Source: a virus
Lineage: Duplodnaviria > Caudoviricetes
DNA length: 64,000 bases
IMG/VR virus record: IMGVR_UViG_3300025120_010521
Reading direction: 5' to 3' (one strand)
Made by a program: the position numbers and the translations under genes. How positions within the stretch are numbered: the stretch's first letter is position 1; each line of letters opens with the position of its first letter. The notes beneath the pieces were generated by a model, which was given only the letters and a program-made list of their open reading frames with translations, ran no database searches and was not told the origin of the DNA. Shown in pieces: positions 6,633 through 55,456 of this stretch.

Positions 6633-7442
6633 TTAATCCTTTTTATGAACTGTATCACAGTTGTCAATATATTTAGTGTAGTCGCCAATTGAGTGATCTA
6701 CAAAACCATCACCAACTGTTTTATTAAAAATACTTGCTACACCATCTTTAAACATTCTCCAAAACTTTACTGCACCAATTCTTAAATCATGATTACGATC
6801 AATATAGCAAAAGTTACCAACATGTGTATAGTTCATTATTACCCACGGTACTCTTGTAACTAAATCTCTTTGATTTCTAAATCTCCACACTGGACATTTG
6901 ATTGTTTTTGTAAATGTTCTATTGCCAACCCTAGGTGACCCGTAAGTAAAACATCCTCTAGCAAACGTACCTAACCGTGAAGCCGCAACTGTTGCCGCCG
7001 CCGCACCCAATGAATGTCCTGTAGTGTAAACTTTTTTAGTTTTATTTGTTTTTAAGTTAGTACCATGTTCAAAAAATATTCTTTTAATGTCATCCCAAAT
7101 TTCATCAACATAGTTTGAAAATCCAGTGTGTACTTTACCACCTTCCCATGCTGACCTTTTCCAAAACTTCATATCAGAAAATATATCTTTCATTTCTTTT
7201 GGTTGTGTTCCTCTAAAAGCAATTATAAAAGTATCATCATTCCAAAGTATGTATGCTTGAGAACCGTTTCTATCTAAAAATTGATAATGATAATCATCAA
7301 TTATATTTTCTTTACGTAAAAAATGTGTAAATGACTTTGGTGTATAATATGCCGCACTACTTAATTTAGAAAAAAATACTGCTGTGTCTTTGTTAAATTT
7401 ATCAACAATAATATTAAGCGGCCCAGACATGAGTTGCTCCAT
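6633..7442 (-). CDS. Lipase class 3 (alpha/beta hydrolase)
   Basis: AFRGT, VHTGF, GHSLG nucleophile, GSPRVGN, DLVTRVP, C-terminal DH. Confidence 0.88.
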   Translation of the reverse strand: MEQLMSGPLNIIVDKFNKDTAVFFSKLSSAAYYTPKSFTHFLRKENIIDDYHYQFLDRNGSQAYILWNDDTFIIAFRGTQPKEMKDIFSDMKFWKRSAWEGGKVHTGFSNYVDEIWDDIKRIFFEHGTNLKTNKTKKVYTTGHSLGAAAATVAASRLGTFARGCFTYGSPRVGNRTFTKTIKCPVWRFRNQRDLVTRVPWVIMNYTHVGNFCYIDRNHDLRIGAVKFWRMFKDGVASIFNKTVGDGFVDHSIGDYTKYIDNCDTVHKKD

Positions 7443-7905
7443 TTTGTTTACCTACTCTAGCAATATGATTCATTCTTTTAATTACATCATTATAGTAGCC
7501 TTCACGTTTACCGCCACCAATCATTGTTGCTCCGCCACCGGACTTATCAATTGTTGTTGGTTCTTCTGGTGATGGTTTACCAATTGCTTTTTGTAGCCAT
7601 TGTGTAGTTTTTGCTATAAACTCATCAATTGGAAAAGGTGATGCATCTTCTAAGTCTGTTGGATACCCAAGTTCATCCATTACTTGTCTCATATTTGTAT
7701 TTGCAAGACTGAGATCTAGTTCAGGTTTGTAATCTGGATTTGGTTTTGGCTCTGCATCATACGGATAATCTGCTTTGTAAACATCAGGATGATATCTATC
7801 GCCCGAATCAACAGATGATCTCCAATAATTATCTTTTGGATCTTTGGCACCTGCTGAAAAACTCATACTCTCTTGTATTTGCTGAACTAGTTCTCTAAAT
7901 CTCAT
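7414..7905 (-). CDS. Hypothetical protein with capsid-targeting-like N-terminus
   Basis: MRFRELVQQIQE start resembles T4 internal-protein CTS MKTYQEFIAE. Confidence 0.6.
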   Translation of the reverse strand: MRFRELVQQIQESMSFSAGAKDPKDNYWRSSVDSGDRYHPDVYKADYPYDAEPKPNPDYKPELDLSLANTNMRQVMDELGYPTDLEDASPFPIDEFIAKTTQWLQKAIGKPSPEEPTTIDKSGGGATMIGGGKREGYYNDVIKRMNHIARVGKQNGATHVWAA

Positions 7906-30992: not shown

Positions 30993-31067
30993 TGGAGCGG
31001 GTAAAGGGGTTCGAACCCTTGACCTATTCGTTGGCAACGAATCGCTCTACCACTGAGCTACACCCGC
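30993..31067 (-). tRNA. tRNA-Gly(GCC)
   Basis: Cloverleaf GCGGGTG.../ATTCG-TTGCCAA-CGAAT/GGTTCGAACC, CCA encoded. Confidence 0.95.
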
Positions 31068-35836: not shown

Positions 35837-35912
35837 TGGTGGAGGATACAGGGATCGAACCTGCTACCTCCTGAATGCAAATCAGGCGCTCTCCCAGATG
35901 AGCTAATCCCCC
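35837..35912 (-). tRNA. tRNA-Ala(TGC)
   Basis: G3:U70 acceptor pair, CCTGA-TTTGCAT-TCAGG, CCA encoded. Confidence 0.95.
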
Positions 35913-40396: not shown

Positions 40397-40472
40397 TGGT
40401 GCCGGCAGAGAGATTCGAACTCCCGACCTGACGATTACAAATCGCCTGCTCTACCAACTGAGCTACGCCGGC
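40397..40472 (-). tRNA. tRNA-Thr(TGT)
   Basis: GCCGGCG acceptor, GGCGA-TTTGTAA-TCGTC, CCA encoded. Confidence 0.95.
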
Positions 40473-40894: not shown

Positions 40895-42334
40895 TTAAAT
40901 ATTATGTTTTGTTTGGCTTTGTTTTACCCAATTGTTAAACATAGTTTGTGGGTCTGTTTGTTCTTTTAAGCCTTTTCTTACCATACCCATTACACTTGGT
41001 TTAGTAATGATTTTTGATAATTTCATTACAACATCAATTACATCATCTTTGTAACTGATTGGTAAGTCTTTGCCGTTTGCAAGTGTACGCATAGCAGTTT
41101 TAAATCTTGATACTTTGTTTTTTGGTACCATGCCTTGTCTTGCTAACATATCAAGTTTTGATAAATCTTGTTGCGAAAGTGATTCTGCCAATGCTCTTGA
41201 AAGTAAATTTGCTTTGCCTGGATTATTAAGTGCTTTTGCAACTTTTAAAAGCAAAGGTTGTAGTGCTTGTTGTCTTGTTGGATCAATATTATTACCTGAT
41301 GCTAATTTTTTAATTGCAACCATAGTTGTCGCATTTGCATTTGGGTCTGTTTTTTTAAGTAAATCTAATTTTACTTTAATATCTTTAGCATCTTCCGGTG
41401 ATGCATCTGGTGTTGCTTTTGTACGTGATTGTTTTGCCGCCATTGCTTGTTTAATTCCTGGAGTAATAGCATCTTGATCAACATTTGCATTTGCATCTGG
41501 TTCAACATCCATACCATGATTTGTTTTAAACCAACCTTTGACCTGTGCCGCATCTGGGTCACTTTGTTTAAATTGTAAATAACTTTTCCAAACATCATTA
41601 GCAACTTGACCAATGTTTGCTTCAGCATCTGCTTTAGTTTTCATATCCCCTAAACCAGGAACTTTGCCTACAACTTTTTTTGCTTTGTTAACTGCTTTTT
41701 TAATAGCACCAAATGGTGCCTCATCAACTGATTCATCTTTGATTAATTCTTCTTGATGCCTTGCAAGTTCTTCTATCGAATCAAAAACACCTGTCATCTT
41801 ACCATTTTTATATGAATAAAATTTTCCTTTATGATTTCTAGCTGACAGTCCATATTTGTTCATACTTGTTTGCGATGACCCATCTTCAAGTAAACCTAAA
41901 TCATCAATCCTATCTGCAATCCAAACATCTGGATCTCCTTCTCTGGCTTTCATAATACCATATGGCATTTCGCCTGAATTCATATAGTAACCAAATAATT
42001 CATCATACACTTCAGATCCATATTCAATATCATCTGTGCTTTTAATATTGTGTTTGATTAATATTGCTTTGATTGTGTTATATTCAGTTGATTCATTTAA
42101 ATCTTTTTTCATTTGTTCTTTTGATTTGCTGTATTTCTTTTGAAACTCTTGATCTGATAATGTTTTAATATCAGCATCTATGTCTGACATTCTACCTTCA
42201 TTTTTGTTAGGCTTGCCATGTTTGTTGTGTTGAGCCCATGCAATGGCGTATGGTGCACCTGGATCGTCAAACTTCTTTTTTAGTTTTTTAACTTGTTTTT
42301 CTCTTCCTGGTGGTGCTATTTCGCTAAATTTCAT
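40895..42334 (-). CDS. Modular putative internal head protein
   Basis: MKFSE start, PYAIAW module, hydrophobic-X-E linkers; ATAAATA at 42352-42358. Confidence 0.65.
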   Translation of the reverse strand: MKFSEIAPPGREKQVKKLKKKFDDPGAPYAIAWAQHNKHGKPNKNEGRMSDIDADIKTLSDQEFQKKYSKSKEQMKKDLNESTEYNTIKAILIKHNIKSTDDIEYGSEVYDELFGYYMNSGEMPYGIMKAREGDPDVWIADRIDDLGLLEDGSSQTSMNKYGLSARNHKGKFYSYKNGKMTGVFDSIEELARHQEELIKDESVDEAPFGAIKKAVNKAKKVVGKVPGLGDMKTKADAEANIGQVANDVWKSYLQFKQSDPDAAQVKGWFKTNHGMDVEPDANANVDQDAITPGIKQAMAAKQSRTKATPDASPEDAKDIKVKLDLLKKTDPNANATTMVAIKKLASGNNIDPTRQQALQPLLLKVAKALNNPGKANLLSRALAESLSQQDLSKLDMLARQGMVPKNKVSRFKTAMRTLANGKDLPISYKDDVIDVVMKLSKIITKPSVMGMVRKGLKEQTDPQTMFNNWVKQSQTKHNI

Positions 42335-42354
42335 TGTGTACTCCTACTTTATAT

Positions 42355-42606
42355 TTATCGCTTTAACATAGGATATATGTCTTTTACTTTGGTTCTATAT
42401 GCTAGTGTATCTGCACTATACCCCATTTGTGCTATATTTTTGTGTTTTTTACGTGCATTTTTAAAAATTTTACCAAATGGATCAACTGCTTTACGGGCCT
42501 GTGCTTTTGTAGTACCTGGTGTTATTGGAAATGCAATTGTGGCTATATTACCACTTGCTGTTGAACCTGCAGTTGCATCTTCTGTTATAATGTCATTTAT
42601 ACGCAT
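42355..42606 (-). CDS. Putative internal head protein
   Basis: MRINDIITE CTS-like start; ATAAATA 5 nt upstream. Confidence 0.65.
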   Translation of the reverse strand: MRINDIITEDATAGSTASGNIATIAFPITPGTTKAQARKAVDPFGKIFKNARKKHKNIAQMGYSADTLAYRTKVKDIYPMLKR

Positions 42607-42620
42607 AAAGATATTTATCT

Positions 42621-42845
42621 TTAACTTAACTTTTTCTTAATCCATAATACAAGTGCGTACACAGTAATTGCGTACACTGTAGCAACACCAATATCTAATA
42701 AGTGTTCACGCATATGATATATAAATTCAATACCTGCTTGTACATCGCCCATATTACCAGTTGATGTCGTTTGCATTATTTCAACATTACCGGCACCGTC
42801 ACCGATATTAATTTCTTTTCCACTGTATGGATTATCTTCTGACAT
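42621..42845 (-). CDS. Small protein with C-terminal TM
   Basis: Hydrophobic C-terminus. Confidence 0.6.
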   Translation of the reverse strand: MSEDNPYSGKEINIGDGAGNVEIMQTTSTGNMGDVQAGIEFIYHMREHLLDIGVATVYAITVYALVLWIKKKLS

Positions 42846-43042
42846 TATTTTTTTCTCCCTGACTTCATGTTAGCACACCAGTGATACATTTTTGCTTTTT
42901 CTCCTGATGCTTTTTTAGCCTTTGCTCTTAGACTAGTAACTGATCCTTTGCAACTTGCTCCTGAACGTTTTACTCTACCAGGACGTGATTTACCTTTTTT
43001 CTTGCCATCAGCAAAATTTTCTGTTAGTTCTATGTATCTCAT
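42845..43042 (-). CDS. Small basic protein, CTS-like start
   Basis: MRYIELTE then K/R-rich with C..HWC. Confidence 0.7.
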   Translation of the reverse strand: MRYIELTENFADGKKKGKSRPGRVKRSGASCKGSVTSLRAKAKKASGEKAKMYHWCANMKSGRKK

Positions 43043-43440
43043 TTTTTGTACTTGTTACTAACGTTTTTTGCTTTGCCTTTTCTATCTGGATTTGAATCTT
43101 TTCTGCGTTTTCTATTTACTGCTTGAGCTATTGCTTTCTTACCGCCTTTGGATCTTAACGAAGACGCTCTTGCTTTTGATAAACATTTTGGCTTGCCTTC
43201 ACCTGATTTCGAATCACCACATTTGCCAATTCTTTCGCCTTTGGTGTTGTAACGATCCCAGCCACCGCCACCTGCGCCACCTTTTTTGCCTTTGCCAAAC
43301 CAAGCACGTAGATCTTCTTCTACGTTTTCTTGTGCTTCTTTTTTTACACAGTTAGGAACACGTTTTCCAAATAACATTTTTGTGCCTTTTTTCTGGTAAC
43401 CCTTCCAGCACTTCTCATCTAATAACTCAATTAGCTTCAT
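43039..43440 (-). CDS. Basic protein, CTS-like start
   Basis: MKLIELLDE, CWKGY...VPNCVK, LRAWF, KPKCL. Confidence 0.7.
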   Translation of the reverse strand: MKLIELLDEKCWKGYQKKGTKMLFGKRVPNCVKKEAQENVEEDLRAWFGKGKKGGAGGGGWDRYNTKGERIGKCGDSKSGEGKPKCLSKARASSLRSKGGKKAIAQAVNRKRRKDSNPDRKGKAKNVSNKYKK

Positions 43441-43631
43441 TACTTTTTACTCTTATTTCCCCAATTCTTAGCACCAACTTTTCTGCATTTTACTAGAGCA
43501 CCGCTGGCGTAAGCTGACGGCCACACTTTATAACGTGATTTAACTTTATGATAACAAGCATCTTTCTTTTCAGCAAGTGTATCAAACTCATCTTCTGTAA
43601 GTGCTTTTAATTTAATTTCATTTATTCTCAT
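43440..43631 (-). CDS. Small basic protein, CTS-like start
   Basis: MRINEIKLKALTE, DACYHKVK.RY.VWPSAYASG...CRK. Confidence 0.7.
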   Translation of the reverse strand: MRINEIKLKALTEDEFDTLAEKKDACYHKVKSRYKVWPSAYASGALVKCRKVGAKNWGNKSKK

Positions 43632-43645
43632 AATGTCTCCTAATA

Positions 43646-44356
43646 CTAATATTTACCAAATGCCCAATATTTTTCTTCACACCACCAACATGTTTCACAA
43701 GGTGTAACATAGCCGTTAGTTTCTTGTGATTCACCTTCACAAGACCATGTTAACGGCAATAACGTATTAATTAACCCGTGTTGCTTATACATATCTGCAA
43801 CAAATTTCTTATCTGTATTAAAAAATGGTCGCATACCCATACCATCATCTTGTATAACTACGTGATTAAGGTCTGGATTTCGTCTATCTACTTGATCAGT
43901 GTCATGCGACATTGTTGTATGTGGTGGGTTAGATGTTATACCATCATACAATACATCCCATGTTCTAATTTCAAAATTATTTTTATCTCTATCTGTAAAT
44001 TCTTTTAATTCAGTTTGATGGGCATCATTTAAATCTGGATAATAAATTACATGATCTTTCATGTTCTTAAAATTTAAAAGTTCAATAACTTTGTTTATAA
44101 CTTGAGATGCTTTTACAGGATTCCATGGGCGTTGTCGTCTGACTGACATTGGTTGCACTTTAATATTTAAGTTTTTATCTTGTACTTGTTTACAAAGTAA
44201 ATATAGTAACAAACTAGAATCTGCTCCACCAGAACACCATATACCCAATGTGTTTACTTCGCGAGTGTTGTTTGTAAATTTAGGAATTACTATATCAATT
44301 GATTCAGACTTATTTGTATTATAATACGTTTGTCTTGTTAATTCTTGCCATTTCAT
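43646..44356 (-). CDS. QueC-like PP-loop ATPase (divergent)
   Basis: SGGADS PP-loop; TWSC...CETCWWC Zn motif; start revised to MKWQEL at 44356. Confidence 0.65.
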   Translation of the reverse strand: MKWQELTRQTYYNTNKSESIDIVIPKFTNNTREVNTLGIWCSGGADSSLLLYLLCKQVQDKNLNIKVQPMSVRRQRPWNPVKASQVINKVIELLNFKNMKDHVIYYPDLNDAHQTELKEFTDRDKNNFEIRTWDVLYDGITSNPPHTTMSHDTDQVDRRNPDLNHVVIQDDGMGMRPFFNTDKKFVADMYKQHGLINTLLPLTWSCEGESQETNGYVTPCETCWWCEEKYWAFGKY

Positions 44357-44997
44357 CTTCCCATCCTTAGGTTGATTTGATTCCAATCAATAATAGTCAT
44401 TATACTTTTAATGTATTTTGCTTTTGCATCTTTGGCAGGAATATAATCCGTAAATGAATGTTCCCACATATCAATTGGCATTAGTATGTCTGACTTGTAA
44501 GATTGATTTGGTGTTGTTTTAAGTTCGCCTGACTTACTTAAATATACCCAACCACTACCTTGTATGGTCATTGCTGTAGCAATCATTTCTTCTGTAAATG
44601 AATTAAGATCGCCAAATCTGTGTTCAATTAATTCTTTAATGGCACCATCTGGTTTTGATCCATCTGCTTTTTGCAGTTGTTCCCAGAATAGGTTGTGTAG
44701 CATTGCACCACCATAGTTAAAATCTGGATCACCTTCTTTGTTATTATATCTTGTTACGTATCCGTTTGATAATATGTTGTAGTGATATTCTACATTGTCT
44801 TTAGATAGCACTGGTGCTAAATCTTTTGTTTCATAAGCCAACTTTTTTAGTTCTAGTTTTTGTGGTTTTGACTCGTTCATAGATAGTTTCATCCTTTCAT
44901 GATGTCTTCGTGCAAACTCTTTGCGAGGATTTGGCATTTGTATAAAATGCGGATTCTCGCCAATGCCTGCTAGTTGTTTTAATCTTGCTATATCCAT
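44353..44997 (-). CDS. Fe/Mn superoxide dismutase with N-terminal extension
   Basis: EYHY, GGAMLHN, QGSGWVYL, DMWEH metal ligands. Confidence 0.88.
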   Translation of the reverse strand: MDIARLKQLAGIGENPHFIQMPNPRKEFARRHHERMKLSMNESKPQKLELKKLAYETKDLAPVLSKDNVEYHYNILSNGYVTRYNNKEGDPDFNYGGAMLHNLFWEQLQKADGSKPDGAIKELIEHRFGDLNSFTEEMIATAMTIQGSGWVYLSKSGELKTTPNQSYKSDILMPIDMWEHSFTDYIPAKDAKAKYIKSIMTIIDWNQINLRMGR

Positions 44998-44998
44998 A

Positions 44999-47830
44999 TT
45001 ATTTTATAGCAACTTGGTAAGCCATACCACGTTGCTTTTGTCCTCTTACATAAGTATCGCCAATTGTTACAAATTGCATTAATGCTTCTGTTGGTTCATC
45101 AATTGATATTGTTTGTACTCCATCACTTGATAATCTAACTAATAACATAGAATGTAATCCTTGTTTAACTTTATAACTTTGGAAAGCAATTTTTCCAAGT
45201 TGTAAAGGAGAAACATTTGGATAGTTTACAACTGCACTGTCAATTAACCCATCGTCAGCACTTTGATATGCTGTCTTTAATACTAATTTAAAAATTTGTT
45301 TTTGTTGTTCTGATGTTAACGGATTATTTGGATCCTTAGCATATTGCGGATCACTTAATACTTGAGCTAAATGTGGTTGTTTAACTCTTGTTGTTTTTCC
45401 TGGTAGTGTCCTAACACCAGCAGGAACTAATTCTTTATTTAATAAACTATCTGGTCTATTTAAATATGTTTCTAAAGGAGTATCATCATATGCTGTCCAT
45501 CTGCCTCCGCCGCCTGAACTAGTAGATGCTTTAGCTTTAACTTCAATTAATTTACCGCCCCATTTTAAATCGTAACCAGCATCTGGTGACGTTCCAACTG
45601 TAATTTTTCTGTGGAAAGCCGCTAGTGCAACTTCGCCTGGACCAGCTTCACCGGCAAATTTTCCTTGCAATTGAGGATCGTTAATCATTTTTTGGAACAT
45701 TACTGAAGCAATGCCTGATCCTGTCCACCAATCGTCCATAGATTTAACATCACCACTGCCATCAAATAAAATTTCTGGTTTAATATAATTTTGTCTGCCA
45801 AATTCTTTTAGAAATTGAATTTTGGTTGGTATTGGAACTTCCATATCAACTATTATTTGCGATAATCTATTAATAAATTGTTTAGCGTCACTATCCTTAC
45901 CAAAAGCAAATTTTACAATGTTTCCAATATTTCCTGAACGTAAGATACTTGCAACTTTATTTAAAAGTTTTGGATTATCAGTTTTTTGTATTCTTGTTAT
46001 TATTTGTTTTTTTAAAGTATCTGGATCAACTTCGTCTTCTTTTATCATGCCATGTTTAATTAAAAGTTTTTCTAACTGTTCTTTGACCGGTAGCATGTAA
46101 TGATTCTTTCTGCCTTTGGTCAAGTATGAAAGTGTACGCCAAGTTTTAAACCAATCTTCTGTGCCTGGTTTTGATGTTGCTTTCATTTTTTGATGCATTT
46201 CTGTACCTGGATGTGTTAACAAGCTCATTTCGCCGCCATCATTTTGATATGGAACCTCAGCTGGATTTGATATTGTTTTTTTAGCTTCTTTTACTAGATG
46301 ATTAATACTTTTTTTAATTCCTTGCAAATCCATTTGTTGTTGTAGTGTTAAGTCTTTGTTTGAGCCATTAATTTTAATTAATGCTTCTTGCATACGTTTT
46401 ACACGTCTTAAATTTTTTGGTGTCATTATTGGTGGTACTCCATCTTTAGTTACTTTAAATCCAAATTTAGCTGACTGCTTTTTGATTGCATCAACACCAA
46501 CATCATGTGTAGTGTTTATGCCCTTAACAACTCTGCCACCATGTTCTGTTAAATTATTTTTTTCTTTGAAGTCTTTTATACTGTTTTGTACTTTTGACAA
46601 TGGATCTTCATCTGCTTGATACTTAACACCATAACCTCCACGTTGTAGCCAACCTTGTATATTTCTTCCTCTATCATCAATTAGTATATTTTGTGTTCCA
46701 TCTGATTGTACAGCATATGAATCTTTTCTTCCAACAACAATAATTTCATCTGGTTGTATAGCAAGTTCTCTTTTAATCCATTTAATCTTTTGTACTTTTG
46801 AATTTTCATGGTCACCTCTCAACGGAGATGATAATATTTTGTAACTACCAAATTCTTTTACAATCATTTGTATTAATTTGTCTGTAGTTGGAAATTTTGG
46901 TAATCTATTAAAAAAATCTGTACCAATCATTTTATCTAATGTTGGATCTGTTTTAGCAGGTGGAATATCTTTGTAATTTCCTGTAGTTACTCCTGCAAGT
47001 TTGGCATACTCGGCAAAAAAGTTTGCAAGTACTCCATCCATATCAACATAAGCGATTGGTTTACTTTCTGGTGCTTCTAGTTTTGCACTTTCATTAATAT
47101 CATATGATTTGCTTTTGTGTTTTGTATAACCTCTTTTGTCTAGTGCTTTTTTATCTTTGTGTGATCCTGCCGCACCGCTTTTTCTAATGGCTTCCATGTC
47201 TTTCCAATTTGGATCACGTGATTTGATATCTGGTTTCTTTGGCATCTTTGGTTTATTTGCCATTTCCATAATTCCCATACCTTGTCTTACTTTTGTGTAC
47301 AATTGTTGTTTTAATTTTTCGCCACCATCAATAGTTTGTGAAAATGTGTTAAAGTCTCCTGCTTTTGCAAGTGCTCTTGCCTTAGATGCTGACACACCAG
47401 ATACATCAGTAGCATCTGCATCTCTTTCGCCTGAACTTACTATTGAAAATTTCTCAATACCAAAATCTTTAAGATATGGTCTCATTTGTGATTCAAAGTC
47501 TTGTTTACGATCAGAACCAACTACCATAATAACTTCGTTATATTGTTTACCTAATTCTTCTAATGCTTCCCACGGTGTACGAATTGCTGGATCGTCCATA
47601 ATATTCATATGTGGAAACATTGCTCTTAAGAATGTAATTTTATCTTTGTACTGTAATGGATTTTTTTTTGGATCATTAGTTTTACCTGTAAACACATAAT
47701 GGTCTGCACCGCTAGATGCATTTTTTACAACATCCATTAATCGTGCATGTCCTTTAGTTGGAGGATTAAATCTACCAAATGTAAACACTGCCTTTTTTGC
47801 GTTTGGTTCTAATAATTCATTTATGTCCAT
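44999..47830 (-). CDS. Multidomain protein: HIGH-family nucleotidyltransferase + HAD 5'-nucleotidase + PD-(D/E)XK-like domain
   Basis: FGRFNPPTKGH and VSASKAR; YVDMDGVLANF, LSSP, ILIDD; GEVAL...YDLK...IEVKA. Confidence 0.75.
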   Translation of the reverse strand: MDINELLEPNAKKAVFTFGRFNPPTKGHARLMDVVKNASSGADHYVFTGKTNDPKKNPLQYKDKITFLRAMFPHMNIMDDPAIRTPWEALEELGKQYNEVIMVVGSDRKQDFESQMRPYLKDFGIEKFSIVSSGERDADATDVSGVSASKARALAKAGDFNTFSQTIDGGEKLKQQLYTKVRQGMGIMEMANKPKMPKKPDIKSRDPNWKDMEAIRKSGAAGSHKDKKALDKRGYTKHKSKSYDINESAKLEAPESKPIAYVDMDGVLANFFAEYAKLAGVTTGNYKDIPPAKTDPTLDKMIGTDFFNRLPKFPTTDKLIQMIVKEFGSYKILSSPLRGDHENSKVQKIKWIKRELAIQPDEIIVVGRKDSYAVQSDGTQNILIDDRGRNIQGWLQRGGYGVKYQADEDPLSKVQNSIKDFKEKNNLTEHGGRVVKGINTTHDVGVDAIKKQSAKFGFKVTKDGVPPIMTPKNLRRVKRMQEALIKINGSNKDLTLQQQMDLQGIKKSINHLVKEAKKTISNPAEVPYQNDGGEMSLLTHPGTEMHQKMKATSKPGTEDWFKTWRTLSYLTKGRKNHYMLPVKEQLEKLLIKHGMIKEDEVDPDTLKKQIITRIQKTDNPKLLNKVASILRSGNIGNIVKFAFGKDSDAKQFINRLSQIIVDMEVPIPTKIQFLKEFGRQNYIKPEILFDGSGDVKSMDDWWTGSGIASVMFQKMINDPQLQGKFAGEAGPGEVALAAFHRKITVGTSPDAGYDLKWGGKLIEVKAKASTSSGGGGRWTAYDDTPLETYLNRPDSLLNKELVPAGVRTLPGKTTRVKQPHLAQVLSDPQYAKDPNNPLTSEQQKQIFKLVLKTAYQSADDGLIDSAVVNYPNVSPLQLGKIAFQSYKVKQGLHSMLLVRLSSDGVQTISIDEPTEALMQFVTIGDTYVRGQKQRGMAYQVAIK

Positions 47831-47977
47831 TTATCTTCTTTTGCCTTGTCCGTTATATTGTTTATAAGAACGTCTTTTGGATTTATTCATCGATGACATT
47901 TTTAATCTGCCACGACCAATTGTTGTTCTTTTTGCTACATGGTTGATTGTAGACTCTTGTCCCATCATCTTTGCCAT
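47831..47977 (-). CDS. Small very basic protein (48 aa, not in ORF track)
   Basis: MAKMMGQESTINHVAKRTTIGRGRLKMSSMNKSKRRSYKQYNGQGKRR. Confidence 0.65.
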   Translation of the reverse strand: MAKMMGQESTINHVAKRTTIGRGRLKMSSMNKSKRRSYKQYNGQGKRR

Positions 47978-47978
47978 A

Positions 47979-48350
47979 TTATGCTCCTATTTTTAAATTT
48001 ACTTCACTGTACTCATTATCATCCATCTTTTGTAATTCATCATCAGCAATTGATTTAGCCGCTAAATTTCTCACAAGTCCTGGAAACTTAACTCTTGCCA
48101 TTGGACCTGCTTCTTTTTTAGCTACGTTATCAATTAAGTAACGCCATAATTTAATTGCTAGATTATGATCGTAAACACCTTTAGCACGTTTACGCATAAG
48201 ATTTTTAATAATTGGCATATATTGACTTCTATAAAGATCTCCATCATTTGTTGCTAATAATTCTAACTCATCAGCAAGATCTTGAACTTTAGTAGGGTCA
48301 ACAGTACCTTCTTGTACTTCTAGTAAATAATCTTTAAATTGTCTAGTCAT
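47979..48350 (-). CDS. Hypothetical protein, CTS-like start
   Basis: MTRQFKDYLLE; TATAAATA inside the upstream promoter. Confidence 0.65.
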   Translation of the reverse strand: MTRQFKDYLLEVQEGTVDPTKVQDLADELELLATNDGDLYRSQYMPIIKNLMRKRAKGVYDHNLAIKLWRYLIDNVAKKEAGPMARVKFPGLVRNLAAKSIADDELQKMDDNEYSEVNLKIGA

Positions 48351-48369
48351 AACTAATTCCTAATAGTAT

Positions 48370-48398
48370 TGTATATACTAGTGTATTTATACTGTCAA
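48370..48398 (-). promoter_or_regulatory. Composite promoter (sigma70-like with nested TATAAATA)
   Basis: TTGACA-GTATAAATACACTAGTA-TATACA. Confidence 0.55.
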
Positions 48399-48412
48399 GA
48401 AAAATTAGAAAC

Positions 48413-48979
48413 TTAATTAAATGTGATATATTCGTCTTTATTAGGCTTTACATCATCATCATTAGTTGAATTTCCAGGTTCTGTTCCTGGAGTCTCTATT
48501 TCTTGCTGTAATATTGGATTCCAAAACGTTCCCATATTTGGACCTGCATATCCTACACCAATAGCTAAATTAATATCATCACCATGATAGCATCCACAAA
48601 ATCCTATATCAAGTCCATAATTTACTGCTGATGTAACTGTAAACATTGCCGCCAAGCCAATTTCCATTAATGAATTGCTGTTTGCTCCTTCATCACCACT
48701 ATCTCTATATGAAAAAGTAAACAAGTACGGAGCCATTACTTGAGGATTGCGTCTATCTTCCGGAGAATCAACATCACACCAAGTATTTTTAAATATTTGA
48801 TTTCGTTTTTCTGGATTTGACCAATCTAAAACTTCAATTTTGTATGGAACTGCGTTTTGCTTACTTGGACAATTATTGTGTACTTCATCTAATATTTGAT
48901 TAATAATGTTACGATCAGGAACTTTGTTAGACCAACTAAACGTTTGCTTTTTGTTTTTAAGTATATCTTGCCAATCCAT
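48413..48979 (-). CDS. Nitroreductase-like protein
   Basis: PSKQN, EIG.AA.F...A...GLDIGFCGC. Confidence 0.7.
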   Translation of the reverse strand: MDWQDILKNKKQTFSWSNKVPDRNIINQILDEVHNNCPSKQNAVPYKIEVLDWSNPEKRNQIFKNTWCDVDSPEDRRNPQVMAPYLFTFSYRDSGDEGANSNSLMEIGLAAMFTVTSAVNYGLDIGFCGCYHGDDINLAIGVGYAGPNMGTFWNPILQQEIETPGTEPGNSTNDDDVKPNKDEYITFN

Positions 48980-49017
48980 ATCTATATAAATCCCTATATA
49001 GTATATTTATAATTGGA

Positions 49018-49611
49018 TTATCCCCATGGCTTCTTATCAAGGTCAACTGTGATACCTTGTGCTTTTAACCCTTTTATTACGTTTTGTACACCAACTACCT
49101 GTCTAAATGTGTCATGTAGTGCATGGTGCTTGTCTGCTTGTGGCATTTGTGCTTGGATTCCAAAGCCAAACAATGTTCTAGTATCTCTTATGTCGTAATA
49201 ACTCCATGGAACTCCAACTTCCATTTTACGCATAATATTGTCAACAATCATTAAATCAAAGCATGATCCATGGCTCCAAGGACGTTTTACACCAAATGAA
49301 AACTTACGCAACTCTTTCATTGCGTCTTGTATTGTGATCCTATCACCGTTGTCACCAAATGCTTCATCTTGTGCTTCTTTTGATTGTGTTGACCACCAAT
49401 TGATTGTTTCTTCGTTGACTTTACACCCAAGTGCTGTGCATGAATCTAAATCAATTCTTCTGTACATAACTTGATGTGGTGGAAGATCTGAAACTTTAAT
49501 TTTGCTATAATCTGCGTGTGGATCAAATCTAATTGCGGCCATAGTAACAATTGCCGCATCGTTAGATGTAGCTAGAGTTTCTAAATCAATCATTAAATCT
49601 GTGTTTGCCAT
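49018..49611 (-). CDS. DEDD-family 3'-5' exonuclease
   Basis: MIDLETL, HGSCFD, DTRT, HHALHD. Confidence 0.85.
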   Translation of the reverse strand: MANTDLMIDLETLATSNDAAIVTMAAIRFDPHADYSKIKVSDLPPHQVMYRRIDLDSCTALGCKVNEETINWWSTQSKEAQDEAFGDNGDRITIQDAMKELRKFSFGVKRPWSHGSCFDLMIVDNIMRKMEVGVPWSYYDIRDTRTLFGFGIQAQMPQADKHHALHDTFRQVVGVQNVIKGLKAQGITVDLDKKPWG

Positions 49612-49617
49612 ATTTTT

Positions 49618-49645
49618 ATTATAGCATCAATTAGTTATTTGTAAA
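49618..49645 (-). promoter_or_regulatory. Sigma70-like promoter, leaderless
   Basis: TTTACA-N16-TATAAT, ATG 6 nt downstream. Confidence 0.6.
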
Positions 49646-49650
49646 GAGGT

Positions 49651-50292
49651 TTATTCTTCTGATTTGTCTTTATATTGCCATTCGTCAGTGTGTCCAACTG
49701 ACCATTTAGGTTCATTTTCAACTGTATAATTTTGTGTACAAACTTTAAAGTCTGGCATTTTACGATCAGGATGTACTAGACTTTGGTCTGTAAATATAGT
49801 TCTATTGTTTGGCTGTGCCGCAAACTGTCCATTGTCTAGTTTAATAAAATTAAATGACTTATGCTCTGGATCATGTTCTGAAAAATTTGTATTAAGTGTA
49901 TTATTGTCTCTATGACAAGTATCAAGTGTAAAAATGTATTCGCCTTTGTGCATATTTTTGTCTTTACCAAAAAATTGACAATCAGCTAACATTGGCTTTT
50001 TAATTACTGTAATATCGTAATCAAAACAATCCCATATTTGTAATGTATCTAAAGGAAGTTGGTTATCTTTGTCGTAGTCTATTTTCCAGACGAATGCTGA
50101 AATTGGAAGTTTATCATATAATGCACCATATTCTGTTAGTAGTGTTTCTATGTATAATGCTTTACCCATTATACTTCTAATTGATATCCAAACTCCAGGT
50201 GTTAGTTCACCATGACCTTTTTGTAGATCATAAAGATATTCTTTTTTTACATATACTTCAATTGGTGGAAGATTGTGTACTAGGAAGCTCAT
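49651..50292 (-). CDS. Conserved-type hypothetical protein
   Basis: 213 aa globular ORF with GGAGG SD. Confidence 0.7.
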   Translation of the reverse strand: MSFLVHNLPPIEVYVKKEYLYDLQKGHGELTPGVWISIRSIMGKALYIETLLTEYGALYDKLPISAFVWKIDYDKDNQLPLDTLQIWDCFDYDITVIKKPMLADCQFFGKDKNMHKGEYIFTLDTCHRDNNTLNTNFSEHDPEHKSFNFIKLDNGQFAAQPNNRTIFTDQSLVHPDRKMPDFKVCTQNYTVENEPKWSVGHTDEWQYKDKSEE

Positions 50293-50304
50293 CCGATGCC
50301 TCCG

Positions 50305-51417
50305 TTACCATGCTCTGCAACTCCAGTAACGAGCTTTCGTTCTTGGACCTGGATTTGAGCAATTATGTCTTGCACGGAATGATTTTCTACGTGCTGGGTT
50401 TGATTTTTTAATACGCATTGTTTTTGAATCTTTGTTCTTGCCGCCACCTTGGTGACCAAAGCGTACCATTTTTACGTTTCCTGTTTTAGGATCTTTTACA
50501 TAAACTTTAAATTTACCTGGCTCATCTGTGCCAGTTCTGATTGGCTTACTTAACTTAACTGTTTTGCCTTTGTACTTGGCTTCAAATGCTTGACCAAAAG
50601 TTCGTGTATTTTCAGCAACACCAAAACCTACAATATCTTCACCTAAGATCTTTGCCGCTTCTGTACAGTTGTCTTCATCAATTTCTGATACACCCATAAC
50701 TTTCATAAATTCTTGGTGCATAGATTTAGTAATTGGCATCATAGCATAAAAAGGTTCTAATCCTTTTTCAGTAACAGCATCTTGACCGTACTTTGATGTA
50801 ACGTTATTGTATTCGTTAATTTCAGCACCATCTGAAAGTATACCAGTGTCTATATAACCTTTTAACATTCCTGCTGGTAATTCGTCTCCGTTGCTTCCTT
50901 CATAATTTTTGTACTTGTTGTACCAAGCCTCTAATGCTGACTTATCAACTGCTTCATTAACATCTTGTTCGTTGTTATCAAAACCTGCTTGTACCATTTC
51001 ATATTCTAAATAATCTTTTACCACTTTTAAGTAATCTGATGCTTTGGTTAGTTTTGATGCTACCCAACCTTCGATACCTTGACGTTCAGAAACCTTTTGC
51101 AACATATCATGAACTGCTTTTGCGTTTTTCATTGCATGGTACATTTGTGATTTGCCCATGTTGACTTCATGGTCTTGTTCTTGTGATTCTTGCTCTTGTG
51201 GTTCTTGTTCCATTTCGCAACCACATGCTTCTTCTAAATCTGAAATAAATTTTAATGCTTTGTCATCTGCTATTACAGTAACAGAGTTTTCATCAATTTT
51301 TTCAATCACTGTTGAAATTAATGCTGTGCTTTCGCCAAACTCAAGATCAATTGCATCACCAACTTGTGGTTTTAGCTGTTCTGATACAATATCAATGTAT
51401 TTTCTTATATCTTGCAT
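50305..51417 (-). CDS. Modular putative internal head protein with basic C-terminal domain
   Basis: MQDIRKYIDIVSE; GWVASKLTKASDYL module; RRKSFRARHNC...ARYWSC C-terminus. Confidence 0.7.
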   Translation of the reverse strand: MQDIRKYIDIVSEQLKPQVGDAIDLEFGESTALISTVIEKIDENSVTVIADDKALKFISDLEEACGCEMEQEPQEQESQEQDHEVNMGKSQMYHAMKNAKAVHDMLQKVSERQGIEGWVASKLTKASDYLKVVKDYLEYEMVQAGFDNNEQDVNEAVDKSALEAWYNKYKNYEGSNGDELPAGMLKGYIDTGILSDGAEINEYNNVTSKYGQDAVTEKGLEPFYAMMPITKSMHQEFMKVMGVSEIDEDNCTEAAKILGEDIVGFGVAENTRTFGQAFEAKYKGKTVKLSKPIRTGTDEPGKFKVYVKDPKTGNVKMVRFGHQGGGKNKDSKTMRIKKSNPARRKSFRARHNCSNPGPRTKARYWSCRAW

Positions 51418-55380: not shown

Positions 55381-55456
55381 TGGCTCCGCAGGCAGGACTC
55401 GAACCTGCGACCAATTGATTAACAGTCAACTGCTCTACCAACTGAGCTACTGCGGA
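55381..55456 (-). tRNA. tRNA-Asn(GTT)
   Basis: TCCGCAG acceptor, GTTGA-CTGTTAA-TCAAT, CCA encoded. Confidence 0.95.

What the first reader, a model, noticed from the sequence alone, without database searches (positions are those of the whole stretch)
40895..51417. Late-expressed block of proteins sharing T4-like capsid-targeting N-termini: a candidate head-packaged cargo system
Seen: nine of the ORFs here start with a short M-[K/R/D]-hydrophobic...hydrophobic-X-E leader: MKFSE, MRINDIITE, MRYIELTE, MKLIELLDE, MRINEIKLKALTE, MDIARLKQLAGIGE, MDINELLE, MTRQFKDYLLE, MQDIRKYIDIVSE. Several have TAAATA late-type elements just upstream (42352, 42612, about 43650, 48385, 51423), whereas the metabolic genes mostly use sigma70-like promoters. 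Known: T4 IPII/IPIII carry a 10-aa CTS (MKTYQEFIAE) removed by prohead protease gp21 after (I/L)-X-E, and they are ejected with the DNA. Inference: this phage packages a much larger cargo than T4, including enzymes (SOD, nucleotidyltransferase/nucleotidase/nuclease) and basic DNA-binding peptides, delivered before any transcription.
Basis: partly seen in the sequence, partly recalled or inferred. Interest (0 to 1): 0.85.

Follow-up and report, generated by a model that had tools for sequence, protein, structure and literature searches.

The report
Capsid-targeting leaders on phage cargo genes
A very large T4-related marine phage has a run of unrelated genes that all begin with the same short leader peptide, most likely a tag that loads these proteins (small basic proteins and several enzymes) into the phage head for injection with the DNA, as in T4 but with far more cargo.

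Summary
A strict core, M-[RKD]-h-x-[ED]-h, starts 6 of 15 ORFs in the block, 1 of 91 elsewhere in the window and 0 of 475 internal Met sites.

The same leaders recur in the same block of at least six related metagenomic contigs. They sit on non-homologous proteins and swap freely. Stand-alone homologues of three domains of the 943-aa ORF (nucleotidyltransferase, NT5C nucleotidase, PD-(D/E)xK-like C-terminal domain) nearly all carry either this leader or a T4 IP-type leader.

The leaders resemble the propeptides of T4 gp24 (MAKINELLRE) and Alt (MELITELFDE). Cyanophage homologues of two window proteins were found in purified S-SM1 virions by mass spectrometry.

A T4-type head module (portal, S77 protease, scaffold, gp23) from an apparently close relative has the same leaders on the genes in the gp67/gp68 position.

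Verdict: probably a T4-style capsid-targeting and propeptide system, much expanded. Cleavage and packaging are inferred, not shown.

Two of the nine leaders are doubtful. SOD carries a different leader that copies the scaffold's C-terminus.

First-stage notes flagged similar blocks elsewhere in this genome.

The parts
42355..42606 (-). 83-aa basic ORF, leader MRINDIITE|DATAGSTASGNIATIAF
   Evidence: Class-1 leader. Orthologues keep the post-Glu segment while the leader changes: L005 MLIREIFNRKVDE|TATAGATSAG, L029 MKISDIIKE|QATVGATSSG. The junction resembles the major capsid protein propeptide junction YLAE|AASTGATGAGNVAAL in L116 (pairwise BLASTP E = 0.006). ATAAATA lies 5 nt upstream.
42845..43042 (-). 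65-aa very basic ORF (pI 10.6), leader MRYIELTE|NFADGKKKGKSRPG
   Evidence: Orthologues have 8-11-aa leaders of different sequence before a conserved NFADGKKKG (L005 MRFAEIESVYE|, L012 MRIFEVVE|). In L003 the same leader MRYIELTE heads a different 266-aa body. pI.
43039..43440 (-). 133-aa basic ORF, leader MKLIELLDE|KCWKGY
   Evidence: phrog_727 modules. In cyanophage S-RIM8 gp114 the same module is fused behind the 63-aa module, with a leader-like linker ISFQQFQE|KCWKGY in between.
43440..43631 (-). 63-aa basic ORF, leader MRINEIKLKALTE|DEFD
   Evidence: 77-82% identical to an internal module of cyanophage proteins (S-RIM8 gp114; S-SM1 SSM1_115 = T4-GC119). T4-GC119 was detected in S-SM1 virions with 13 counts. 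The LTE|[DE][EQ]FD junction is kept even where it is internal.
44353..44997 (-). Fe/Mn superoxide dismutase with a 48-aa N-terminal extension, leader MDIARLKQLAGIGE
   Evidence: Pfam Sod_Fe_C 3e-19 and Sod_Fe_N 2e-9. PDB SODs reach 5e-20, and the alignment retains LHNLFW and DMWEH. The LAGI motif is unique in the six-frame translation of the window and matches the scaffold C-terminus DIVELKKLAGLGVK of L116.
44999..47830 (-). 943-aa fusion: leader MDINELLE, then nucleotidyltransferase, NT5C nucleotidase and a PD-(D/E)xK-like C-terminal domain
   Evidence: Pfam CTP_transf_like and NT5C; PHROG cytidyltransferase 2e-44. Of the 76 distinct N-termini preceding the first beta-strand (beta1) among homologues of the first domain, 70 carry a leader. 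The NT5C domain is a separate gene with its own leader in L029. Of 32 distinct N-termini of stand-alone C-terminal-domain homologues, 26 are class 1. The C-terminal model has pLDDT 88, and its best fold matches are restriction endonucleases at Z 3.7-4.6. The homologue T4-GC190 was found in S-SM1 virions with 25 counts.
47979..48350 (-). 123-aa ORF, T4 IP-type leader MTRQFKDYLLE|V, behind an exact TATAAATA (48384-48391)
   Evidence: Nearly the same leader (MTNKTFKDYLAE|V) heads a different protein in L005.
50305..51417 (-). 370-aa ORF, MQDIRKYIDIVSE (doubtful leader), with a C-terminal basic ...ARYWSCRAW module
   Evidence: phrog_7595. The module is widespread in marine phages. The L003 orthologue reads MQDIRKYIDILSATPQ with no Glu. 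Homologues of the C-terminal module in L005 and C48C1 carry IP-type leaders.
40895..42334 (-). 479-aa basic ORF, MKFSE|IAPPG (short, doubtful leader), behind ATAAATA (42352-42358)
   Evidence: The L005 homologue has the longer MKLSDITEEFEGLNE|APPGG. It contains the DPGAPYAIAWAQ module also present in S-RIM8 gp114.
7414..7905 (-). 163-aa ORF outside the flagged block with a class-1 leader, MRFRELVQQIQE|SMSF
   Evidence: The only strict-pattern match outside the block. Its homologue in L029 (MRFNEIKQIYE|SMSF) sits inside the cargo block next to NT5C.
42621..42845 (-). 74-aa leaderless ORF with a hydrophobic C-terminus, not part of the leader set
   Evidence: pI 4.8.
43646..44356 (-). 236-aa PP-loop (SGGADSS) ATPase-like ORF, QueC-like, leaderless
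   Evidence: phrog_1550 4e-6; weak TilS N-terminal match.
47831..47977 (-). 48-aa very basic peptide (pI 11.9), no leader
48413..50292 (-). Three leaderless acidic ORFs: 188 aa, a 197-aa Rv2179c-like 3'-5' exoribonuclease, and 213 aa
   Evidence: Pfam PF16473 1e-30. A sigma70-like TTTACA-16-TATAAT (11 of 12 matches) lies at 49645-49618, before the exoribonuclease. An exact TATAAATA at 49004-49011 precedes the 188-aa ORF.

Best explanation
Most of the nine N-termini are capsid-targeting propeptides of the T4 kind.

Proposed mechanism:
- A short amphipathic leader (consensus M-R/K-h-x-E/D-h ... h-x-E, 8-13 residues) gives the newly made protein affinity for the scaffolding core of the growing prohead.
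- A gp21-type (Peptidase_S77) prohead protease cuts after the terminal Glu when the head matures.
- The mature protein stays inside the head with the DNA and enters the host with it.

The cargo is larger and more enzymatic than in T4:
- several small, very basic proteins, probably DNA-associated;
- a nucleotidyltransferase / NT5C nucleotidase / PD-(D/E)xK-like fusion that looks like several leader-bearing genes joined, with leader-derived linkers as possible internal cut sites;
- probably a superoxide dismutase.

Shown here: the leaders exist, they cluster, they are conserved at peptide level rather than DNA level, and they are interchangeable between unrelated proteins.

Shown by others: homologues of two cargo families are present in cyanophage virions.

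Inferred: targeting, cleavage after Glu, packaging and injection in this phage, and that this genome encodes the protease.
For: 1. Clustering. The strict leader starts 6/15 ORFs in the block, 1/91 outside and 0/475 internal Met. It clusters in the same way in related contigs G001 and G002 and appears in L008, L012 and L029.

2. Modularity.
- The same leader heads different bodies: MRYIELTE in the window against L003; MTRQFKDYLLE against L005 MTNKTFKDYLAE.
- Different leaders of 8-13 aa head the same body, always ending in Glu just before the conserved part (NFADGKKKG, ATAG.T..G.IAT, VFTFGRFNP).

3. Scale.
- Of 76 distinct N-termini preceding the first beta-strand (beta1) among 119 homologues of the nucleotidyltransferase domain, 58 are class 1 (MRLFELAQPLTE and similar), 8 are T4 IP-type (MIKGFNEYITE, MKSFSQFISE), 4 are other and 6 have none. 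The two leader kinds therefore substitute for each other on one enzyme.
- Stand-alone homologues of the C-terminal domain are class 1 in 26 of 32 distinct N-termini.
- NT5C is a separate gene with its own leader, MNLSELEH|SKPILYVDMDG, in L029. The window has the internal linker YDINESAKLEAPE|SKPIAYVDMDG at that point.

4. Likeness to known gp21 substrates, read from the T4 record: gp24 MAKINELLRE, Alt MELITELFDE, gp22 MLKEQLIAE, gp21 MNEPQLLIE. ipII and ipIII read MKTYQEFIAE. The CTS rule (targeting residues 4 and 7, processing residues 8 and 10) and the cleavage of gp24 and Alt are described in PMC9026906.

5. Protease. L116 holds portal PF07230 (2e-106), S77 protease PF03420 (7e-26), a scaffold, and gp23 PF07068 (5e-98). 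Between portal and protease, where T4 has the core proteins gp67 and gp68, it has two ORFs starting MKIYEIS...IEE|G and MRYIELKE|N. Relative C48C1 (Kyanoviridae) has PF03420 and a syntenic block of IP-type leaders.

6. Virion mass spectrometry in relatives. S-SM1: T4-GC190 cytidylyltransferase 25 counts (it starts MKKFSAFLNE), T4-GC119 13 counts, and neighbours GC1453/1454/1455 12, 10 and 7 counts (PMC3037559). S-CREM2: cytidylyltransferase plus two neighbours (PMC10665884).

7. Leader-bearing ORFs are mostly basic (pI 9.3-11), while the leaderless ORFs of the block are acidic, apart from the 48-aa basic peptide.

8. Late-type ATAAATA or TATAAATA lies upstream of the first gene of the leader-bearing runs.
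Against: - There are no proteomic or N-terminal data for this phage or its close relatives.
- The protease and scaffold are not in the window. No whole genome is held. Related fragments G001-G004 lack PF03420.
- The link between L116 and this genome rests on three peptide strings quoted in first-stage notes that match L116 exactly. Three walking steps along the source contig did not reach it.
- The Glu of the 370-aa ORF's leader is not conserved at 84% identity.
- MKFSE is shorter than any known CTS.
- The LTE of the 63-aa ORF is part of a module that is conserved even inside larger proteins, so it could simply belong to the fold.
- The T4-related pelagiphage HTVC008M shows few such leaders.
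- The basic modules also occur in podophages, which are not known to use a gp21-type protease (established knowledge, not tested here).
Confidence: 0.65

Rival explanations
1. The shared N-termini are a gene-start cassette: a favourable AT-rich translation start and/or a short homology patch that lets accessory genes be shuffled. This would resemble the conserved promoter-terminator cassettes (PeSLs) described for hyperplastic regions of T4-like phages. On this reading the leader has no role in protein targeting.
For: - The block is plastic: gene content, fusions and order differ between relatives.
- In T4 itself the ipII and ipIII leaders are identical over 30 of 30 nucleotides, which fits recombination.
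- The codons used (AGA, ATA, AAT, GAA) are the AT-rich ones expected at starts in a 32% GC genome.
- PeSL-type shuffling is documented for T4-like phages (PMC4122927, listed).
Against: - Conservation is at peptide level, not DNA level: Arg is CGT in one leader and AGA in another, lengths differ, and no two leaders share a long identical DNA stretch.
- The Glu is held immediately before the conserved body across distant homologues.
- Leader-like peptides persist as internal linkers in fused proteins, where no translation start is needed.
- Homologues are in virions.
- Shuffling and targeting are not mutually exclusive; in T4 both hold.
Confidence: 0.12
2. The leaders are N-terminal recognition or degradation tags for the phage's own Clp machinery (ClpX, ClpP, ClpS, ClpB-like). 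They would time the turnover or unfolding of a set of proteins rather than load them into heads.
For: - The window encodes a ClpB-like AAA+ protein (2063-4291).
- A metagenomic contig that carries window genes also encodes ClpX, ClpP and ClpS (L139, L145).
- Met-basic-hydrophobic N-termini loosely recall the N-terminal ClpX recognition motifs described for E. coli. This point rests on established knowledge and was not tested here.
Against: - The same leaders occur on genes in the prohead-core position, next to the S77 protease, in L116.
- T4 IP-type leaders substitute for them on the same enzyme.
- The S-SM1 homologue, which starts MKKFSAFLNE, is in virions.
- A conserved terminal Glu and a capsid-protein-like junction are features of protease substrates, not of degrons.
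Confidence: 0.06
3. The likeness is compositional chance. In an AT-rich genome many N-termini are rich in K, I, N and E, and h-x-E is common.
For: The loose motif occurs after 18% of internal Met and at 16 of 91 other ORF starts.
Against: The strict core occurs at 0 of 475 internal Met and 1 of 91 other starts. It replicates in independent contigs and in hundreds of metagenomic homologues.
Confidence: 0.02

Closest known systems
T4 internal proteins IPI, IPII, IPIII and their capsid targeting sequence (CTS)
   Same: A short N-terminal propeptide ending in h-x-E sits on otherwise unrelated, mostly basic, non-essential-looking proteins that are clustered in plastic regions. Leaders are interchangeable. 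This is a T4-related phage with an S77 protease in the lineage. In the T-even phages, ip genes are recognised by this leader alone (PMC12373910, PMC3012670, PMC9026906).
   Different: The dominant leader has a different consensus (MR-h-x-E-h...h-x-E rather than MKTYQEFIAE) and variable length. There are many more candidates per genome. The cargo includes whole enzymes and multi-domain fusions. There is no sequence homology to the T4 IP bodies. Nothing has been verified experimentally.
T4 gp24 and Alt propeptides (gp21 substrates)
   Same: MAKINELLRE (gp24) and MELITELFDE (Alt) are the closest matches to MDINELLE, MKLIELLDE and MRYIELTE. Alt is an enzyme packaged in the head and injected.
   Different: gp24 is a shell protein. 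Alt is the only enzyme cargo of this kind in T4, whereas here several enzymes carry the leader.
Head proteins of phiKZ-like giant phages (phiKZ, 201phi2-1, SPN3US) processed after Glu
   Same: Dozens of head-internal or ejection proteins are cut C-terminal to Glu by a distant gp21 relative. The cargo mass is large (PMC9026906, PMC5694885, PMC7411985).
   Different: Those propeptides are long, with the motif S/A/G-x-E, and the phages are not T4-like in replication or head gene order. Here the head module is canonically T4-type.
Virion-associated cytidylyltransferase of T4-like cyanophages (T4-GC190) and neighbours
   Same: It is homologous to the first domain of the 943-aa ORF (44% identity). 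It was detected in purified S-SM1 and S-CREM2 virions. It starts with a CTS-like MKKFSAFLNE.
   Different: Here the domain is fused to a nucleotidase and a nuclease-like domain.
Polyvalent proteins of phages and conjugative elements (Iyer et al. 2017, PMC5512222)
   Same: Multi-domain fusions of small enzymatic and binding modules, predicted to be delivered with the DNA. The modules also occur as separate genes.
   Different: In this lineage the modules carry T4-type leaders and leader-derived linkers, which suggests processing into separate proteins.
Encapsulin cargo-loading peptides and scaffold C-terminal coat-binding helices
   Same: A short terminal peptide shared between a scaffold-like protein and cargo. 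Here D-I-x-x-L-K-x-L-A-G-[LI]-G sits at the scaffold C-terminus and at the N-terminus of SOD.
   Different: The resemblance is of principle only. There is no sequence relation, and binding here rests on one weak co-fold result.

Membership tests
T4-type CTS-bearing head-internal proteins | N-terminal propeptide of about 10-19 residues with hydrophobic positions and a terminal (L/I)-x-E | tested here: met
   Seven of the nine ORFs have 8-14-residue leaders ending in h-x-E. MKFSE (5 aa) and MQDIRKYIDIVSE (Glu not conserved) are doubtful.
T4-type CTS-bearing head-internal proteins | The leader is a portable module shared by otherwise unrelated proteins | tested here: met
   The same leader heads different bodies, and different leaders head the same body. 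Class-1 and IP-type leaders alternate on one enzyme family. Stand-alone homologues of the fused domains carry leaders.
T4-type CTS-bearing head-internal proteins | The phage encodes a gp21-type (Peptidase_S77) prohead protease and a gp22-type scaffolding core | tested here: inconclusive
   Neither is in the window and no genome is held. Both are present in L116, together with identical leader types, and in relative C48C1. The link from L116 to this genome runs only through first-stage notes whose quoted strings match L116.
T4-type CTS-bearing head-internal proteins | The protein is present in purified virions | not testable with these tools
   Homologues only: T4-GC190 and T4-GC119 in S-SM1 and cytidylyltransferase in S-CREM2.
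T4-type CTS-bearing head-internal proteins | The propeptide is removed after Glu during head maturation | not testable with these tools
   Indirect evidence only. The conserved body starts right after the Glu. The junction of the 83-aa ORF resembles the capsid protein's propeptide junction.
T4-type CTS-bearing head-internal proteins | Late transcription | tested here: inconclusive
   A strand-specific, start-proximal ATAAATA/TATAAATA lies upstream of 42334, 42606, 48350 and 51417, and TAAATA upstream of 43631. No expression data were examined.
Fe/Mn superoxide dismutase (PF00081 + PF02777) | Both domains present and metal ligands retained | tested here: met
   Pfam 3e-19 and 2e-9, both above the curated cut-offs. 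The alignment to 4br6 keeps the His of LHNLFW and the Asp and His of DMWEH. The first His is read directly from VEYHYN. The N-terminal hairpin is shortened (profile positions 3-41 of 82).
PD-(D/E)xK nuclease (C-terminal domain of the 943-aa ORF) | Restriction-endonuclease-like fold with a D...(D/E)-x-K catalytic motif | tested here: inconclusive
   D115, E124 and K126 are invariant in 30 homologues. The model has pLDDT 88. The best matches are HhaI (Z 4.6, rmsd 4.4, 142 aligned), HinP1I (Z 3.9), NhoI and MspI, with Foldseek HinP1I at E = 0.028. All of these are below the level that counts as clear.
Cytidylyltransferase-like nucleotidyltransferase (PF01467) | Rossmann beta1 followed by the (H/T)xGH motif | tested here: met
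   Pfam 6e-7, above the cut-off. The motif VFTFGRFNPPTKGH is read directly. The substrate is unknown: NCBIfam NMNAT and CoaD equivalogs score far below their cut-offs.

The most novel reading that the evidence does not exclude
This lineage has two separate routes for loading cargo into the head, and it uses polyproteins.

(a) Class-1 and IP-type leaders dock on the scaffolding core, as in T4.

(b) A second leader, D-I-x-x-L-K-x-L-A-G-[IL]-G, copies the scaffold's own C-terminal peptide. It would dock SOD and a family of 66-76-aa proteins directly on the capsid protein, much as encapsulin cargo peptides do.

(c) Large fusions such as the 943-aa ORF, and cyanophage gp114-type proteins, are cut at leader-derived linkers into several mature cargo proteins.

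Evidence for (b). The motif occurs once in each of the seven sequences searched in all six frames. In cargo it always starts 5-6 residues after the N-terminal Met of an ATG-started ORF (in G001 at the equivalent place behind a probable GTG start), and in the scaffold it ends 3 residues before the C-terminus.

A co-fold of SOD residues 1-48 with the L116 capsid protein gave weak support: score 0.49, best of 3 controls 0.00.
- The mark was reached by 51 of 78 solved complexes and 2 of 108 mismatched pairs in the tool's calibration.
- Scores of 0.60 or under were seen in only 5 of those 78 solved complexes, and in all 4 mismatches that passed.
- The three runs share at least 43% of their contacts, and the partner's pLDDT is at least 53.
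Probability: 0.3. Interest if true: 0.75.

Novelty: new variant of a known kind. Interest (0 to 1): 0.6.

Why it matters
If the leaders work as in T4, a simple sequence rule would predict the injected proteome of a whole group of abundant, mostly uncultured marine T4-related phages. That includes very large ones with genomes of about 350 kb by CheckV's estimate.

It would also show that these phages deliver ready-made proteins ahead of any gene expression. The candidates are a nucleotidyltransferase, a deoxynucleotidase, a nuclease-like domain, perhaps a superoxide dismutase, and a set of small basic proteins.

That bears on how marine phages overcome host defences and nucleotide or redox stress at the moment of entry. 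It would explain why a 'cytidylyltransferase' is a core virion-associated protein of cyanomyoviruses.

It would also supply natural, portable packaging tags for engineering capsid cargo outside the E. coli/T4 system.

Tried and rejected
- Megablast of the block against 50,697 phage records: no match. No whole genome is held.
- PF03420 search of related fragments G001-G004: none. These are 16-33% complete, so absence means little.
- PF07068 search of G001-G005 rang nowhere, controls included, so it is uninformative.
- A scan of IMG/VR with the C48C1 protease returned only C48C1-like phages, not the window's lineage.
- Three walking steps from the window end along ena k141_66811 reached about +38 kb. 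They found SufBD, ClpX/P/S, IF3, S21 and L11, but no head genes and no record shared with the head-module contigs.
- tblastn of L116 proteins against the window-lineage contigs found only paralogue-level hits for the 116-aa basic protein.
- The search of earlier findings by sequence gave no link.
- BLASTP of the 943-aa ORF against S-SM1 SSM1_188, and of the 479-aa ORF against SSM1_191, showed no similarity.
- HTVC008M, a complete T4-related pelagiphage, has the syntenic cytidyltransferase/nucleotidase block but few clear leaders.
- A single-sequence AF2 model of the C-terminal domain failed (pLDDT 35). It was redone with an alignment.
- PDB sequence search of residues 431-943 found nothing.
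- NCBIfam gave no specific assignment for any unknown ORF.
- Literature searches found no paper in the held library that links a capsid-targeting sequence to cyanophages or pelagiphages. The library is incomplete, so this is not proof of novelty.

Full report
**What is there**

The window is 32% GC, and nearly every gene lies on the minus strand. It carries T4-type replication genes:
- a gp44-like clamp loader and a DNA ligase;
- a T4-like DNA polymerase in relatives.

It also carries many cellular-type genes: a ClpB-like AAA+ protein, DnaJ, an M17 aminopeptidase, IMPDH and porin-like proteins. It has no near DNA match among deposited phages. Related IMG/VR fragments are rated 16-33% complete at 58-117 kb, so this is a very large T4-related marine phage.

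**Checking the observation**

All nine N-termini are exactly as quoted. The five promoter-like elements sit at the stated coordinates.

| Pattern | In block | Elsewhere in window | Internal Met | Fisher p |
|---|---|---|---|---|
| loose [ILVMF]-x-E within 14 residues | 9/15 | 16/91 | 18% | 0.0012 |
| strict core M-[RKD]-h-x-[ED]-h | 6/15 | 1/91 | 0/475 | 2e-5 |

I defined the strict core after seeing the data. The real test is therefore replication:
- In the 84%-identical contig G001 and the 35-43%-identical G002, the same expression picks out the homologous block, plus a second cluster in G002.
- It also appears in L008, L012 and L029.

The element ATAAATA behaves like a real signal:
- It occurs 19 times on the gene strand and 2 times on the other.
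- 15 of the 19 lie within 60 nt of a start, and the total is below the Markov expectation of 30.
- Seven of those 15 lie in 42.3-52.5 kb and eight elsewhere, so the element is enriched here but not exclusive.

The exoribonuclease gene inside the block has an 11/12 sigma70-type promoter instead.

**The leaders are portable modules**

- The 65-aa basic ORF reads MRYIELTE|NFADGKKKG. Its orthologues read MRFAEIESVYE|NFADGKKKG and MRIFEVVE|NFADGKKKG. In L003 the identical MRYIELTE heads a different 266-aa protein.
- The 83-aa ORF reads MRINDIITE|DATAGSTASGNIAT. Orthologues read MLIREIFNRKVDE|TATAGATSAGAIAT and MKISDIIKE|QATVGATSSGNIAT.
- MTRQFKDYLLE|V of the 123-aa ORF reappears as MTNKTFKDYLAE|V on an unrelated L005 protein.
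- At DNA level the leaders differ in Arg codons and in length. Selection therefore acts on the peptide.

**The same holds at scale**

I searched 5.8 billion proteins with the first 200 residues of the 943-aa ORF. That returned 119 homologues with 76 distinct N-termini before the first beta-strand (VFTFGRFNP):
- 58 are class 1 (MRLFELAQPLTE, MRLHEIEHNTAE, MKILEITE);
- 8 are T4 IP-type (MIKGFNEYITE, MKSFSQFISE, MKHFKEYLKE);
- 4 are other;
- 6 have no leader.

The two leader kinds therefore replace each other on one enzyme. This ties the window's leader class to the experimentally defined T4 CTS.

The C-terminal 304 residues of the same ORF have stand-alone homologues of about 350-377 aa. Of their 32 distinct N-termini, 26 are class 1 (MRYKELKE, MRYQDFKLVE, MRFREIKE).

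The NT5C domain is a separate gene in L029, starting MNLSELEH|SKPILYVDMDG. The window has the internal linker YDINESAKLEAPE|SKPIAYVDMDG at that point.

The 943-aa ORF is thus a fusion of at least three leader-bearing genes whose leaders survive as linkers. The same is seen in cyanophage S-RIM8 gp114. There, the window's adjacent 63-aa and 133-aa genes are one polypeptide, joined by ISFQQFQE|KCWKGY.

**Likeness to known substrates**

From the T4 record itself:
- gp24 MAKINELLRE
- Alt MELITELFDE
- gp22 MLKEQLIAE
- gp21 MNEPQLLIE
- ipII and ipIII MKTYQEFIAE

MDINELLE shares INELL with the gp24 propeptide. MKLIELLDE is close to the Alt propeptide.

In T4, the first ten residues of IPIII suffice for encapsidation. 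Residues 4 and 7 target, and residues 8 and 10 direct processing. gp24 and Alt are cut by gp21 (PMC9026906). The T-even internal proteins share only this leader, and ip genes are found by it (PMC3012670; PMC12373910).

**The protease**

It is not in the window. A first-stage note on another part of this genome quoted a scaffold C-terminus, DIVELKKLAGL. I back-translated that string and scanned IMG/VR, which returned nine contigs.

The longest is L116. Its gene order is:
- portal (PF07230, 2e-106);
- a 116-aa ORF starting MKIYEIS...IEE|G;
- a 66-aa ORF starting MRYIELKE|N;
- an acidic 316-aa protein;
- protease (PF03420, 7e-26);
- a 367-aa scaffold ending DIVELKKLAGLGVK;
- the major capsid protein (PF07068, 5e-98).

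The two leader-bearing ORFs occupy the place of the T4 core proteins gp67 and gp68. Their starts are the very strings the notes quote for this genome. I therefore take L116 as a close relative's head module, but I could not confirm the link independently.

The capsid protein's propeptide junction, YLAE|AASTGATGAGNVAAL, resembles the 83-aa ORF's ITE|DATAGSTASGNIATI (BLASTP E = 0.006). That fits a shared protease.

Relative C48C1 (Kyanoviridae) has PF03420 and a syntenic block full of IP-type leaders. Among them is MKTFQEFMKQFEE. Its cytidyltransferase really starts at an upstream GTG, which gives MIKNFSQYLLEEE.

**Experimental support from relatives**

Purified S-SM1 virions (Sullivan et al. 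2010, Table S8) contained:
- the cytidylyltransferase T4-GC190, 25 counts; its gene starts MKKFSAFLNE;
- T4-GC119, 13 counts; it holds a module 82% identical to the window's 63-aa ORF;
- the cytidylyltransferase's neighbours GC1453, GC1454 and GC1455;
- gp21.

S-CREM2 virions also contained the cytidylyltransferase and two adjacent hypothetical proteins. The authors suggested encapsidation.

**Cargo identity**

- Leader-bearing ORFs are mostly basic (pI 9.3-11). The leaderless ORFs of the block are acidic, apart from the 48-aa basic peptide.
- The SOD keeps its metal ligands.
- The first domain of the 943-aa ORF is a (H/T)xGH nucleotidyltransferase of unknown substrate.
- The C-terminal domain models well with an alignment (pLDDT 88). 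It has invariant D115, E124 and K126.
- Its best structural matches are type II restriction endonucleases: HhaI at Z 4.6, rmsd 4.4 and 142 aligned residues, then HinP1I, NhoI and MspI. All scores are too low to be conclusive.

**Weak points**

- The Glu of MQDIRKYIDIVSE is missing in L003.
- MKFSE is only 5 residues long.
- The LTE before the 63-aa module is conserved even when internal, so it may be either a cut site or part of the fold.
- HTVC008M shows few leaders.
- Nothing about expression, cleavage or packaging has been measured for this phage.

**A second leader**

SOD starts MDIARLKQLAGIGE. The motif [LIV][KRQ]xLAG[IL] occurs exactly once in the six-frame translation of each of the window, G001, G002, L008, L012 and L029.
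- In the five sequences with an ATG-started ORF it starts 5-6 residues after the N-terminal Met.
- In G001 the SOD reads ...KVDIARLKQLAGIGE, with the motif at the equivalent place behind a probable GTG start.
- It also occurs once in L116, ending 3 residues before the scaffold's C-terminus.

A co-fold of SOD residues 1-48 with the L116 capsid protein gave only weak support: score 0.49, best control 0.00.
- The mark was reached by 51 of 78 solved complexes and 2 of 108 mismatches.
- Scores of 0.60 or under were seen in only 5 of those 78 solved complexes, and in all 4 mismatches that passed.
- The runs share at least 43% of contacts, and the partner's pLDDT is at least 53.

This suggests, but does not show, a second docking route that imitates the scaffold.

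**Verdict**

This is a real, conserved and widespread set of N-terminal leaders. It is best read as an expanded T4-style capsid-targeting and propeptide system with enzyme and polyprotein cargo.

It is a new variant of a known kind. The principle is textbook T4 and was already proposed to generalise. Three things appear undescribed in the literature I could search:
- the leader consensus;
- its breadth across abundant marine phages;
- the fused, leader-linked cargo and the scaffold-mimicking leader.

Noticed in passing
window 44956-44997 (SOD N-terminus); L116:11478-11522: The SOD leader MDIARLKQLAGIGE matches the C-terminal peptide DIVELKKLAGLGVK of the T4-type scaffold in L116. The motif occurs once per sequence in six-frame translations of seven related sequences, always at a protein terminus.
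   Followed up: partly
window 7414-7905: A 163-aa ORF outside the flagged block starts MRFRELVQQIQE|SMSF. Its homologue sits inside the cargo block of relative L029, so the cargo set is wider than the flagged coordinates.
   Followed up: partly
window 44999-47830, about residues 240-260 and 600-615: The internal linkers YDINESAKLEAPE|SKP and HGMIKEDE|VDP line up with the N-terminal leaders of stand-alone homologues of the following domains. The 943-aa ORF looks like a polyprotein made from leader-bearing genes.
   Followed up: partly
L002:3756-5531 (S-RIM8 gp114); L020:3537-5024 (S-SM1 SSM1_115): Cyanophage proteins lying just after the small terminase gene are mosaics of the same small basic modules that are separate genes in the window. 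The S-SM1 protein was detected in virions. The gene that follows in S-RIM8 starts MKSYNEFISE, nearly the T4 CTS.
   Followed up: partly
window, whole; for example 9443, 10401, 24107, 24676, 42606, 51417: ATAAATA is strongly strand-specific (19 against 2). It often ends only 5-8 nt before the ATG, leaving no room for a Shine-Dalgarno sequence, which suggests leaderless or near-leaderless late mRNAs.
   Followed up: no
L139, L145, L151 (contig ena k141_66811, which also carries window genes): Up to about 38 kb beyond the window end, this contig encodes SufB/D, NifU-like, ClpX, ClpP, ClpS, IF3, ribosomal proteins S21 and L11, NAD synthase, HSP20, a MotA/ExbB-like protein and radical SAM/SPASM enzymes. 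That is an unusually cell-like gene set for a phage.
   Followed up: no
window 33426-34313 and 39086-40009: Two ORFs have signal-peptide-like starts and a beta-rich, porin-like composition. HTVC008M also annotates a phage-encoded outer membrane porin.
   Followed up: no
L028:17960-18307: A 115-aa ORF has a Pfam Gp23 hit (it resembles the conserved N-terminal part of the T4 capsid protein). It lies among replication genes, far from any head module.
   Followed up: no
window 30993-31067, 35837-35912, 40397-40472, 55381-55456: Four tRNA genes (Gly-GCC, Ala-TGC, Thr-TGT, Asn-GTT) on the gene strand.
   Followed up: no
window 50305-50600 (C-terminal module of the 370-aa ORF): The ...FRARHNCSNPGPRTKARYWSCRAW module also occurs in pelagiphage and roseophage podoviruses, in Flavobacterium phages and in a Nitrosopumilaceae spindle-shaped virus. 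It therefore moves far beyond T4-like phages.
   Followed up: no
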